Source of the DNA: a virus
Lineage: Duplodnaviria; Heunggongvirae; Uroviricota; Caudoviricetes
Direction: 5' to 3' (one strand)
IMG/VR virus record: IMGVR_UViG_3300029219_000144
Length of the DNA: 62,402 nucleotides
The position numbers and the translations under genes are program-made. Position 1 is the first letter of the stretch. Every line of letters starts with the position of its first letter. The notes below the pieces were generated by a model that was given only the letters and a program-made list of their open reading frames with translations, had not been told where the DNA came from and ran no database searches. This document shows positions 61,363 to 61,437 of this stretch, in pieces.

Positions 61363-61437
61363 GATGGTGTAGCTCAGCGGTAGAGCAGTTGGCTGTTAAC
61401 CAACTGGTCGGTGGTTCGAATCCACCCACCATCGCCA
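61363..61437 (+). tRNA. tRNA-Asn (anticodon GUU)
   Basis: Hand-folded cloverleaf: 7-bp acceptor stem GATGGTG/CACCATC, D-arm GCTC/GAGC, anticodon stem GTTGG/CCAAC with loop CTGTTAA, T-arm GGTGG TTCGAAT CCACC, discriminator G; CCA encoded. Confidence 0.85.

What the first reader, a model, noticed from the sequence alone, without database searches (positions are those of the whole stretch)
61363..61437. tRNA-Asn(GUU) whose sequence does not match the Escherichia chromosomal tRNA-Asn
The cloverleaf is canonical, but the sequence differs from the E. coli tRNA-Asn I recall, and host asn tRNA genes are not expected next to metG. The tRNA lies at the boundary between the phage-like element and an AT-rich block carrying a HerA-like ATPase gene, so it may be element-encoded or mark an integration site for the neighbouring island; the prophage lies on its 5' side, which argues against it being that element's attB.
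Basis: partly seen in the sequence, partly recalled or inferred. Interest (0 to 1): 0.42.

Follow-up and report, generated by a model that had tools for sequence, protein, structure and literature searches.

The report
Phage-plasmid tRNA-Asn beside a transposon
The tRNA-Asn is real and is not the host's: it is the conserved tRNA gene of SSU5-like phage-plasmids, an already known kind of feature, and the block next to it is the remnant of a transposon, not an island that used the tRNA as its docking site.

Summary
A canonical tRNA-Asn(GUU) lies at 61363-61437 (+) and shares only 46 of 76 aligned positions with the four identical E. coli K-12 asn genes.

The context was misread. The whole window is an SSU5-supergroup phage-plasmid of about 110 kb, and this element itself carries the metG-apbC segment.

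The same 75 nt occur at 99% identity or more in 221 E. coli records. Close copies occur in SSU5, pHCM2 and Klebsiella and Enterobacter phage-plasmids, and in the unrelated phages N4 (96%) and P1 (89.5%). Compensatory stem changes keep the cloverleaf.

In 84 related loci tRNA-Asn is the first gene of a variable array: Asn alone, Asn-Ser, Asn-Thr-Ser or Asn-Tyr-Thr-Ser.

In this window the array is cut exactly 5 bp after CCA. The cut is made by the 38-bp terminal repeat of a Tn3-family transposon that carries a SIR2-HerA defence system. Its herA is itself truncated by ISKpn26. The boundary is therefore a transposon junction, not a tRNA attB.

Most likely the tRNA is charged by host AsnRS and supplements translation of Asn-rich phage genes.

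One item may be new: the leader upstream of the tRNA contains a highly conserved tmRNA-tag-like element (ANEEVYLAVA**) with no tRNA-like domain.

The parts
61363..61437 (+). tRNA-Asn(GUU), 75 nt with encoded CCA. It is a backbone gene of SSU5-supergroup phage-plasmids.
   Evidence: ARAGORN; Rfam 75.5 bits; alignment with phage and host copies; present in related loci.
61438..61442 (+). ATTTA spacer. In relatives it separates tRNA-Asn from tRNA-Tyr. Here it is the target flank of the transposon, and the 5-bp target duplication is expected to be a copy of it.
   Evidence: Window ...CGCCA-ATTTA-GGGGTTTGAGG compared with L001 ...CGCCA-ATTTA-GGGGAGTTAGTCC (tRNA-Tyr).
61443..61480 (+). 38-bp terminal inverted repeat (GGGGTTTGAGGGCCAATGATGCAAAAAACCACGCTAAG) of a Tn3-family transposon, at its herA-proximal end.
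   Evidence: Identical to the left end of the complete copy in L005, which has matching inverted ends, a 5-bp duplication (GTATT), tnpR and a Tn3 DDE transposase.
61641..62322 (-). 3' remnant of herA (C-terminal roughly 220 aa) of a SIR2-HerA anti-phage system carried by the transposon.
   Evidence: PADLOC HerA PDLC04098 at 372.8 bits, covering profile positions 467-685 of 686 only. Homology to full-length herA in thousands of plasmids stops at 62322.
62323..62402 (.). End of an IS5-family ISKpn26 copy that truncates herA.
   Evidence: The same junction is followed by an ISKpn26 transposase gene in E. coli S43 and C. freundii pA18-1. This stretch also matches ISKpn26 insertions elsewhere, for example in phage RCS47 imcA.
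60602..60630 (+). Conserved sigma-70-like promoter candidate (-35 TTTACT, 17 nt, -10 TAAGAT) at the start of the non-coding leader. It is inferred to drive the leader RNA and perhaps the tRNA array.
   Evidence: Read from alignment A2: -35 is invariant and -10 is TAAGAT or TATGAT in four lineages. It falls below the threshold of the promoter scan, which found none at 60300-61700. Inference only.
60635..60790 (+). Highly conserved core of the leader. It has a 5' hairpin, then a tmRNA-tag-like frame GCA AAC GAA GAA GTC TAT CTG GCA GTA GCC TAA TAA (60677-60712, ANEEVYLAVA**), then conserved hairpins. No tRNA-like domain is present.
   Evidence: 91-92% identity to SSU5, pJN2-26 and pMT1, against 63-75% for the adjacent ORF. 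Tag variants keep frame and length in 73 IMG/VR loci. Weak Rfam tmRNA-family hits lie far below gathering. ARAGORN finds no tmRNA and no T-arm plus CCA was found.
60815..60903 (+). Long conserved hairpin in the leader (22-nt arms).
   Evidence: the repeat finder I1; pairs kept in 9 sequences with G-C/G-U changes.
60975..61096 (+). Long hairpin (20-nt arms) with base motif CACAACGTTGAG. In relatives a sibling hairpin with the same motif follows the last tRNA of the array.
   Evidence: Four of the stem's 19 predicted pairs have at least one sequence in which both sides changed and the pair is kept.

Best explanation
The feature is a functional elongator tRNA-Asn(GUU) encoded by an SSU5-supergroup (pSLy3/pHCM2-like) phage-plasmid. 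It is a conserved backbone gene. It lies after the replication module (helicase, ligase and small ORFs) and a roughly 780-nt conserved non-coding leader, and it is the first gene of a variable tRNA array. Shown: the gene, its cloverleaf, its conservation and its genomic place. Inferred: it is transcribed with the leader, processed by host RNase P and 3' exonucleases (CCA is encoded), and charged by host AsnRS, because it keeps that enzyme's identity set (G34 U35 U36 and G73). It would then add to the tRNA-Asn pool while the Asn-, Thr- and Ser-rich virion genes are translated. A second, non-exclusive benefit is insurance against loss or cleavage of host tRNA-Asn, because every stem differs from the host tRNA. 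In this particular window a Tn3-family transposon carrying SIR2-HerA landed in the 5-bp spacer just after the tRNA. This separated it from the rest of the array (expected Tyr-Thr-Ser), and the transposon was later truncated by ISKpn26.
For: - **tRNA detection:**
- **Not the host gene:** 46 of 76 aligned columns match K-12 asnT/U/V/W.
- **The window is a phage-plasmid:** it is 96-99.6% identical to circular E. coli plasmids of about 95-115 kb, 97% to phage Cyrano and 84% to SSU5, with virion, partition and replication genes.
- **Distribution:** the identical tRNA occurs in 221 E. coli records at 99% or more. Copies are 98.7% identical in Cyrano and a P1-like phage, 96% in N4, 93% in SSU5 and 89.5% in P1.
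- **Structure is conserved:** compensatory G-C to A-T changes occur in the anticodon stem (SSU5, pJN2-26, P1) and the T stem (N4, P1).
- **Conserved position:** tRNA-Asn is first and at a fixed distance in 72 of the 78 loci long enough to judge, out of 84 related loci. Counts are Asn only 26, Asn-Tyr-Thr-Ser 22, Asn-Ser 13, Asn-Tyr-Thr 5, Asn-Thr-Ser 5 and Asn-Tyr-Ser 1.
- **Codon use:** Asn codons are 47.7 per 1000 in window ORFs and 50.9 in the virion block, against 37.3 in a 50-kb K-12 sample. Codons read by the companion tRNAs are 3-4 times enriched: ACA 16.1-20.5 against 5.5, and TCA 12.9-15.9 against 5.2.
- **Transposon junction:**
- **The junction recurs:** it is present in a metagenome contig identical to the window.
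- **Published parallel:** bioRxiv 10.1101/2025.09.12.675607 reports Tn3-like transposons inserted near tRNA loci of SSU5-group phage-plasmids.
Against: - No expression, processing or aminoacylation data exist here.
- E. coli already has four tRNA-Asn genes, and the Asn enrichment is modest (1.3-1.4 times). Codon supply alone therefore does not explain why Asn is the most conserved member of the array.
- The anticodon loop is identical to the host's. The loop-mutation route of nuclease evasion described in PMC10264068 is thus not seen.
- No promoter passed the scan between the leader and the tRNA, so co-transcription is an inference.
- The transposon may have changed termination or 3' processing in this copy.
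Confidence: 0.85

Rival explanations
1. Anti-defence tRNA. The main role of the tRNA is to replace host tRNA-Asn when it is cleaved or depleted by a tRNA-targeting nuclease from the host or a competing element. Candidates include colicin E5-type enzymes that cut the Tyr/His/Asn/Asp tRNAs, and acceptor-stem-specific toxins. Codon supply would then be secondary.
For: All stems differ from the host tRNA, and the acceptor stem differs at 7 of 7 pairs. The same tRNA is shared by unrelated coliphage lineages (SSU5-like, P1-like, N4) without flanking homology. This fits selection by a common host-side pressure. Array partners include Tyr, and in one locus His, which are also colicin E5 targets. The host has four asn genes, so plain supply seems unnecessary. 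The concept is established for other phage tRNAs (PMC10264068, PMC10802454).
Against: The anticodon loop is identical to the host's, so an anticodon-loop nuclease would not be evaded by sequence. Thr(UGU) and Ser(UGA) in the same array fit codon compensation very well.
Confidence: 0.3
2. The tRNA gene is the attachment site (attB) for the neighbouring AT-rich island, which would have been inserted by a site-specific integrase.
For: The tRNA lies exactly at the edge of homology with all related plasmids, and tRNA genes are classic island targets.
Against: The junction is 5 bp beyond the CCA, not inside the tRNA. The inserted DNA begins with a Tn3-family 38-bp inverted repeat that is identical to the end of a complete transposon with its own 5-bp duplication elsewhere. 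No integrase gene and no repeat of the tRNA 3' end occur in the remaining 965 nt. The same transposon sits at a different spot about 500 bp upstream in another phage-plasmid (L074), so the insertion is not site-specific.
Confidence: 0.03
3. It is a host chromosomal tRNA at its native locus, as in the first reader's refutation case, or a decaying pseudogene.
For: None beyond the shared anticodon loop and the conserved tRNA core.
Against: It is 61% identical to K-12 asn genes. All records with 99% identity or more that were listed are plasmids of about 70-120 kb. Compensatory substitutions and 93-100% conservation across genera argue against decay.
Confidence: 0.02

Closest known systems
tRNA-Asn of Salmonella phage SSU5 and of S. 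Typhi plasmid pHCM2 (SSU5 supergroup phage-plasmids)
   Same: Same synteny: DNA ligase, small ORFs, conserved leader, then tRNA-Asn. The tRNA is 93% identical (70/75) in SSU5, with the same anticodon loop and discriminator.
   Different: SSU5 and pHCM2 carry Asn alone, followed directly by the terminal hairpin. The closest E. coli relatives of this window carry Asn-Tyr-(Thr)-Ser. This window has a transposon end where Tyr should begin.
Phage P1 tRNA-Asn (first of the Asn-Thr pair downstream of the C1-controlled ban promoters) and P1-like phage Ro157c2YLVW (Asn-Tyr-Thr)
   Same: Homologous tRNA, 89.5% identical in P1 and 98.7% in Ro157c2YLVW. Asn is again first in a small array on a phage-plasmid, and the Asn-ATTTA-Tyr arrangement is shared with Ro157c2YLVW.
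   Different: The backbone and flanks are unrelated, so only the tRNA module is shared. P1 has repressor operators and a dicF-like region upstream instead of the SSU5-type leader.
Phage N4 tRNA cluster (Asn-Ser-Thr-Pro)
   Same: The tRNA-Asn is 96% identical and is also first in the cluster.
   Different: N4 is a strictly lytic podovirus of a different family, with no flanking homology.
tRNA-gene islands integrated by tyrosine integrases (for example CP4-57 at ssrA)
   Same: Foreign DNA begins next to the 3' end of a tRNA gene.
   Different: Here the foreign DNA is a Tn3-family transposon end inserted 5 bp past the CCA. There is no integrase gene and no duplicated tRNA 3' segment.
tmRNA (SsrA), for the upstream leader element only
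   Same: It has a ten-codon frame starting at GCA and ending in a hydrophobic YLAVA plus UAA(UAA). 25 of 36 nt are identical to the E. coli tag region. An A lies at -4 of the resume codon, and the stop codon sits in a hairpin loop. Weak matches to Rfam tmRNA-family models extend into the following hairpin.
   Different: It has no tRNA-like domain: no acceptor or T arm, and no CCA. Only about 40 nt separate the putative promoter from the frame, so there is no room for the 5' acceptor strand and PK1. ARAGORN finds no tmRNA, and all Rfam scores are far below gathering.

Membership tests
Bacterial elongator tRNA-Asn(GUU) | Cloverleaf with a 7-bp acceptor stem, D, anticodon and T arms, and the conserved tertiary nucleotides | tested here: met
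   ARAGORN; Rfam RF00005 75.5 bits against a gathering score of 29. U8, A14, G18G19, U33, T54T55C56 and A58 were read from the sequence.
Bacterial elongator tRNA-Asn(GUU) | GUU anticodon in a 7-nt loop with U33 and A37 | tested here: met
   The loop is CUGUUAA, identical to K-12 asnT/U/V/W.
Bacterial elongator tRNA-Asn(GUU) | AsnRS identity elements (anticodon G34 U35 U36 and discriminator G73, from the published E. coli identity set as I recall it) | tested here: met
   All four nucleotides are present. Actual charging cannot be tested here.
Bacterial elongator tRNA-Asn(GUU) | The tRNA is expressed, matured and aminoacylated in the cell | not testable with these tools
   This needs a Northern blot or acid-urea gel. 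Only indirect support is available, from conservation with compensatory changes.
SSU5-supergroup phage-plasmid backbone tRNA locus | Synteny: DnaB-like helicase, DNA ligase, small ORFs, conserved leader of about 0.75 kb, then tRNA-Asn | tested here: met
   tRNA-Asn lies about 650-670 nt after the tag motif in 72 loci.
Host chromosomal asnT/U/V/W | Sequence identity with the host's tRNA-Asn genes at their chromosomal loci | tested here: not met
   46 of 76 columns are identical. Exact matches are on plasmids.
tRNA-gene attB with an integrase-borne island | The island junction lies inside the 3' half of the tRNA, with a direct repeat of that segment at the far end | tested here: not met
   The junction is 5 bp after CCA. 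No repeat of the tRNA 3' end occurs in 61438-62402. The far end lies outside the window.
tRNA-gene attB with an integrase-borne island | A tyrosine or serine integrase gene next to the tRNA | tested here: not met
   The only ORF of more than 65 aa in 61438-62402 is the herA remnant.
Tn3-family transposon (neighbouring block) | Terminal inverted repeats of about 38 bp beginning GGGG | tested here: met
   Window 61443-61480 equals the end of the complete copy in L005. The two L005 ends are 91% complementary over 66 nt.
Tn3-family transposon (neighbouring block) | DDE Tn3 transposase, resolvase and a 5-bp target duplication | tested here: inconclusive
   All are met in the complete copy L005: Pfam DDE_Tnp_Tn3 at 510 bits, a recombinase gene and GTATT on both sides. 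In the window only one end is visible, so tnpA, tnpR and the second ATTTA cannot be seen.
SIR2-HerA anti-phage system (cargo of the transposon) | Adjacent full-length SIR2 and HerA genes | tested here: not met
   Both are full length in L005 (HerA 829 bits, SIR2 515 bits). The window keeps only HerA profile positions 467-685 of 686 and no SIR2 within its bounds.
tmRNA (upstream leader element) | Alanine-accepting tRNA-like domain (acceptor stem with G3-U70, T arm, CCA) | tested here: not met
   ARAGORN -m finds nothing, even at 80% thresholds. The only T-arm followed by CCA in 62 kb is tRNA-Asn.
tmRNA (upstream leader element) | Internal tag reading frame that starts at a resume codon with no start codon and ends in a hydrophobic degron plus stop | tested here: inconclusive
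   The frame GCA...GCC TAA is conserved in length in the 73 IMG/VR loci, which carry five of the six variants: ANEEVYLAVA, ANEDTYLAVA, ANDNQYLAVA, ANEDAYLAVA and ANEDSYLAVA. ANDNQCLAVA comes from plasmid pSg1-1. Synonymous TAT/TAC and ACG/ACA changes are also seen. Upstream 1- and 2-nt indels break any longer frame. Translation is not shown.
tmRNA (upstream leader element) | Reaches the curated Rfam score of a tmRNA family | tested here: not met
   Best scores are 20 bits (tmRNA_permuted, gathering 47) and 12.8-16.6 bits (beta_tmRNA, gathering 84).

The most novel reading that the evidence does not exclude
The tRNA-Asn may be the downstream member of a conserved phage-plasmid RNA operon. Its 5' part would be a tmRNA-derived messenger-like RNA that lacks a tRNA-like domain. 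It has a conserved promoter, a 5' hairpin, a GCA-started ten-codon tag (AN[DE]xxYLAVA) with a stop codon, and PK2-like hairpins. Paired processing hairpins would bracket the tRNA array. Such an RNA could feed into, compete with or block host trans-translation during phage-plasmid carriage or lytic growth. For example, it could act as a decoy for tmRNA-binding factors. It could also act through its 5' segment, which is complementary to the resume-codon region of host ssrA, although that complementarity is not statistically significant. I found no description of this element in the searchable literature.
Probability: 0.25. Interest if true: 0.7.

Novelty: already known. Interest (0 to 1): 0.25.

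Why it matters
For the finding itself the value is corrective. The window is a phage-plasmid, not a chromosome with a prophage. The tRNA is the element's own gene, already annotated in hundreds of records. The neighbouring "island" is a transposon remnant.

Three smaller points are useful:
- tRNA-Asn is the fixed anchor of a tRNA array whose other members (Tyr, Thr, Ser, rarely His) come and go. The same tRNA module is shared with P1-like phages and N4.
- The tRNA region is a repeated landing place for Tn3-family transposons, here one that spreads a SIR2-HerA defence system. This shows how phage-plasmids pick up plasmid-borne cargo.
- The strongly conserved tmRNA-tag-like leader upstream, together with a plasmid-borne metG, suggests these elements invest in translation-related functions beyond tRNAs. 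That is testable in pHCM2, SSU5 or pMT1.

Tried and rejected
- **Chromosomal context:** rejected. metG-apbC lies on the phage-plasmid, at window 2817-6104, 88.4% identical to K-12.
- **attB or island reading:** rejected.
- **Source record for the right-hand transposon junction:** the tRNA|IR junction is absent from the complete E. coli genomes, PLSDB and the GTDB species genomes. One metagenome contig (ERZ772884 NODE-1031) carries it. That contig is identical to the window and ends inside ISKpn26, so it adds nothing to the right.
- **Promoter in front of the tRNA:** none passed the scan.
- **Canonical or two-piece tmRNA upstream:** ARAGORN finds none at default, 95% or 80% thresholds, and the hits at 60% are noise. 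A regex scan for a T-arm plus CCA found only tRNA-Asn.
- **Comparison with K-12 ssrA:** only the tag region aligns (25/36, E 0.025). The antisense match of the 5' segment to ssrA nt 82-104 (18/24, E 1.3) is not significant.
- **IMG/VR scan:** a pattern with a run of 12 N returned nothing, although a contiguous pattern found 73 loci. The first result is a tool artefact, not an absence.
- **Literature searches:** searches for a tmRNA on pHCM2, for 'tmRNA-like' and for a Tn3/SIR2/HerA transposon found nothing relevant. I could not name the transposon.
- **The 133-nt 'tRNA-OTHER' of relative L001:** Rfam does not recognise it, and I did not pursue it.

Full report
**Observation.** ARAGORN reports a single tRNA in the 62.4-kb window: tRNA-Asn, anticodon GTT, at 61363-61437 on the + strand. 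Rfam's tRNA model scores it 75.5 bits against a gathering score of 29, with E = 9.4e-15 for the whole window. The sequence is GATGGTGTAGCTCAGCGGTAGAGCAGTTGGCTGTTAACCAACTGGTCGGTGGTTCGAATCCACCCACCATCGCCA. The MFE fold gives the acceptor, anticodon and T arms and three pairs of the D stem, one short of the full four-pair stem. The sequence carries the usual invariant nucleotides, discriminator G73 and an encoded CCA. The four K-12 genes asnT, asnU, asnV and asnW are identical to one another. They share only 46 of 76 aligned columns with this tRNA. All seven acceptor pairs differ, and the anticodon loop CUGUUAA is the same.

**What the window is.** That is wrong.
- Window 50000-61446 is 96-99.6% identical to circular E. 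coli plasmids of about 100-115 kb, 97% to phage Cyrano and 84% to Salmonella phage SSU5.
- Window 1-20000 is 98% identical to the same kind of plasmid.
- These plasmids carry virion genes, ParB-type partition genes, a DnaB-like helicase and a DNA ligase. They are SSU5-supergroup phage-plasmids, the pSLy3/pHCM2 groups of the classification summarised in PMC11652158.
- The metG-apbC pair lies on the element itself. Window 2817-6104 is 88.4% identical to K-12 mrp-metG, and MetG is about 95% identical at the protein level.

**Distribution and conservation of the tRNA.** The 75 nt recur at 99% identity or more in 221 records of the complete E. coli genome set. The listed ones are all plasmids of about 70-120 kb.

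| Source | Identity to the window tRNA |
|---|---|
| Cyrano and the P1-like phage Ro157c2YLVW | 98.7% |
| Phage N4 and relatives | 96% |
| Klebsiella phage-plasmid pJN2-26 | 94.7% |
| SSU5 | 93% |
| P1, P7, D6 | 89.5% |

Only the tRNA is shared with N4 and P1, not the flanks. Differences among these copies include paired changes that keep helices intact. The anticodon stem shows GTTGG/CCAAC against GTTGA/TCAAC, and the T stem shows GGTGG/CCACC against GATGG/CCATC. This is the signature of a working tRNA.

The tRNA is also present, at the same place, in Enterobacter pCY-CTX, S. Typhi pHCM2, a divergent E. coli plasmid and Klebsiella plasmids. It is absent from Y. pestis pMT1, where the caf1 operon occupies the position.

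**The array.** I oriented 84 related loci on a conserved upstream motif: 73 from IMG/VR plus plasmids and phages. Six were too short to judge. In 72 of the remaining 78, tRNA-Asn is the first gene, about 650-670 nt downstream of the motif.

| Array | Loci |
|---|---|
| Asn alone | 26 |
| Asn-Tyr-Thr-Ser | 22 |
| Asn-Ser | 13 |
| Asn-Tyr-Thr | 5 |
| Asn-Thr-Ser | 5 |
| Asn-Tyr-Ser | 1 |
| No tRNA | 5 |
| His only | 1 |
| Too short to judge | 6 |

The closest relative of the window, NZ_CP070074 (99.6% identical), reads CCA-ATTTA-tRNA-Tyr, then a 133-nt tRNA-like gene, then tRNA-Ser. A hairpin whose base is CACAGCGYTGA follows the last tRNA in every arrangement. A sibling hairpin (CACAACGTTGAG, window 60975-61096) lies upstream of tRNA-Asn.

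**The boundary.** Homology with every related plasmid stops at 61439-61446. The window reads CCA-ATTTA-GGGGTTTGAGGGCCAATGATGCAAAAAACCACGCTAAG. Relatives read CCA-ATTTA-GGGGAGTTAGTCC, which is the start of tRNA-Tyr. The 38 bases at 61443-61480 are the terminal inverted repeat of a Tn3-family transposon.

A complete copy lies in plasmid pEsST80_L1_NDM (L005 7001-14517). It has matching inverted ends, a 5-bp target duplication (GTATT), herA, a SIR2 gene, a resolvase gene and a Tn3 DDE transposase. PADLOC identifies the two cargo proteins as HerA (829 bits) and SIR2 (515 bits), that is, a SIR2-HerA defence system.

In the window only the last third of herA survives (61641-62322, HerA profile positions 467-685 of 686). 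From 62323 on, the sequence is the end of ISKpn26. The same herA::ISKpn26 junction occurs in E. coli S43 and in C. freundii pA18-1.

The transposon therefore landed in the 5-bp spacer between tRNA-Asn and tRNA-Tyr. The tRNA is intact, and no integrase gene or repeat of the tRNA 3' end is present in the remaining 965 nt. The other end of the same transposon family is inserted about 500 bp further upstream in a different phage-plasmid (L074). A recent survey also notes Tn3-like transposons near the tRNA loci of SSU5-group elements (bioRxiv 10.1101/2025.09.12.675607). The region is thus a permissive landing zone, not a specific attachment site.

The junction is not in the complete E. coli genomes, PLSDB or the GTDB species genomes. 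It does occur in one metagenome contig that is identical to the window and breaks inside the IS.

**How the tRNA most likely works.** What is shown is a conserved, structurally sound tRNA-Asn gene on the phage-plasmid backbone. What is inferred rests on established knowledge of E. coli AsnRS identity elements, namely the anticodon and G73, which I cite from memory. On that basis host AsnRS would charge the tRNA, and it would decode AAC and AAU.

Codon counts give moderate support for a supply role.

| Codon(s) | Window ORFs (per 1000) | Virion block (per 1000) | K-12 sample, 50 kb (per 1000) |
|---|---|---|---|
| Asn (AAC + AAU) | 47.7 | 50.9 | 37.3 |
| ACA, read by companion Thr(UGU) | 16.1 | 20.5 | 5.5 |
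| UCA, read by companion Ser(UGA) | 12.9 | 15.9 | 5.2 |

Asn enrichment is small and the host has four asn genes. The alternative is protection against loss or cleavage of host tRNA-Asn (concept: PMC10264068, PMC10802454), and it stays open. The completely different stems and the sharing of this tRNA among unrelated coliphages fit that alternative. The unchanged anticodon loop does not.

**Upstream leader, noticed in passing.** The 780 nt between the last small ORF and the tRNA are annotated as empty in nearly all of the records I examined. In a few of them a CDS, annotated as a hypothetical or 'C-type natriuretic' protein, overlaps the start of the stretch. They are nevertheless conserved in 773 plasmids of Klebsiella, Escherichia, Enterobacter, Yersinia, Salmonella and others.

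A 156-nt core (60635-60790) is 91-92% identical between the window and SSU5, pJN2-26 or pMT1. The adjacent ORF is only 63-75% identical and the ligase gene 75-81%.

The core has these features:
- It follows a conserved promoter-like site: TTTACT, 17 nt, then TAAGAT or TATGAT.
- It contains the frame GCA AAC GAA GAA GTC TAT CTG GCA GTA GCC TAA TAA, which reads ANEEVYLAVA**.
- The other variants are ANEDTYLAVA, ANEDAYLAVA, ANEDSYLAVA, ANDNQYLAVA and ANDNQCLAVA. All are ten codons long. Synonymous TAT/TAC and ACG/ACA changes occur.
- Indels of 1 and 2 nt just upstream rule out a longer conventional ORF.
- The E. coli tmRNA tag is ANDENYALAA**, and 25 of 36 nt are identical.

Rfam gives only weak hits to tmRNA-family models: 12.8-20 bits against gathering scores of 47-84. 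No tRNA-like domain exists. ARAGORN finds no tmRNA, and the only T-arm plus CCA in the window is tRNA-Asn. RNAalifold on nine sequences predicts a series of hairpins, and ten of the predicted pairs have at least one sequence in which both sides changed and the pair is kept.

I regard this as a conserved structured RNA that resembles the messenger part of tmRNA. Its function is unknown, and I found no description of it in the searchable literature. It may be co-transcribed with the tRNA array, but that is not shown.

**Verdict.** As a finding, a phage-plasmid tRNA-Asn is already known and ordinary. The transposon junction is a new instance of a reported pattern. The tmRNA-tag-like leader is the one item that may deserve separate study.

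Noticed in passing
window 60635-60790 (core); whole leader 60585-61362: A strongly conserved non-coding element lies just upstream of the tRNA. It carries a tmRNA-tag-like frame (60677-60712, ANEEVYLAVA**; variants ANEDTYLAVA, ANDNQYLAVA and others) but no tRNA-like domain. The core is 91-92% identical across genera, against 63-75% for the neighbouring ORF. It is present in 773 PLSDB plasmids, including pHCM2 and pMT1. Rfam tmRNA-family hits are only sub-threshold.
   Followed up: partly
window 60975-61096; L001 17494-17571; L012 2751-2828; L011 2811-2891: Two long hairpins share the base motif CACARCGTTGAG and bracket the tRNA array in SSU5-like phage-plasmids. 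One lies about 270 nt upstream of tRNA-Asn, and the other follows the last tRNA directly. They may be processing or termination signals for the array. The downstream one lies beyond the transposon in this window.
   Followed up: partly
window 2817-6104: The phage-plasmid carries its own apbC(mrp)-metG segment. It is 88.4% identical in DNA to K-12, with a full-length MetG about 95% identical in protein. The segment is shared by about 100 related E. coli plasmids. A second methionyl-tRNA synthetase on a phage-plasmid is unusual, and I found no mention of it in the one survey I searched.
   Followed up: partly
window 61443-62402; complete copy L005 7001-14517; L074 about 4073: A Tn3-family transposon (IR GGGGTTTGAGGGCCAATGATG...) carries a SIR2-HerA defence system plus tnpR and tnpA. 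Its herA segment is found in many resistance plasmids. An independent insertion of the same transposon, seen from its other end, lies about 500 bp upstream in another SSU5-like element.
   Followed up: partly
window 62317-62402; L002 about 8881-10075; L003: ISKpn26 truncates herA at exactly the same position in this window, in the E. coli S43 chromosome and in C. freundii plasmid pA18-1. In the latter two the IS is followed by parG-parA, a resolvase gene and an HNH gene rather than by the rest of herA. The fragment therefore has a shared history before it reached these different flanks.
   Followed up: no
L001 17048-17180 (NZ_CP070074, closest relative): A 133-nt tRNA-like gene, annotated 'tRNA-OTHER', sits between tRNA-Tyr and tRNA-Ser, where other arrays have a 76-nt tRNA-Thr(UGU). 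It has tRNA-like acceptor and T arms with about 57 extra nt in the middle. ARAGORN and Rfam do not call it.
   Followed up: no
L017 (Y. pestis pMT1) 1505-2018 and 2019-3507: In pMT1 the conserved leader is present, but the tRNA array is missing. The caf1R-caf1M F1 capsule operon starts right after the second hairpin. The capsule locus thus occupies the same variable slot that holds tRNAs or transposons in relatives.
   Followed up: no
L080 (IMGVR_UViG_2841023034_000004): One SSU5-like locus has foreign DNA inserted inside the conserved core, right after GATTGCAG and beginning GGGGTCGG. A tRNA-His(GTG) is the only tRNA within the roughly 2.1 kb of this locus that lie downstream of the motif. 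The insertion was not examined.
   Followed up: no
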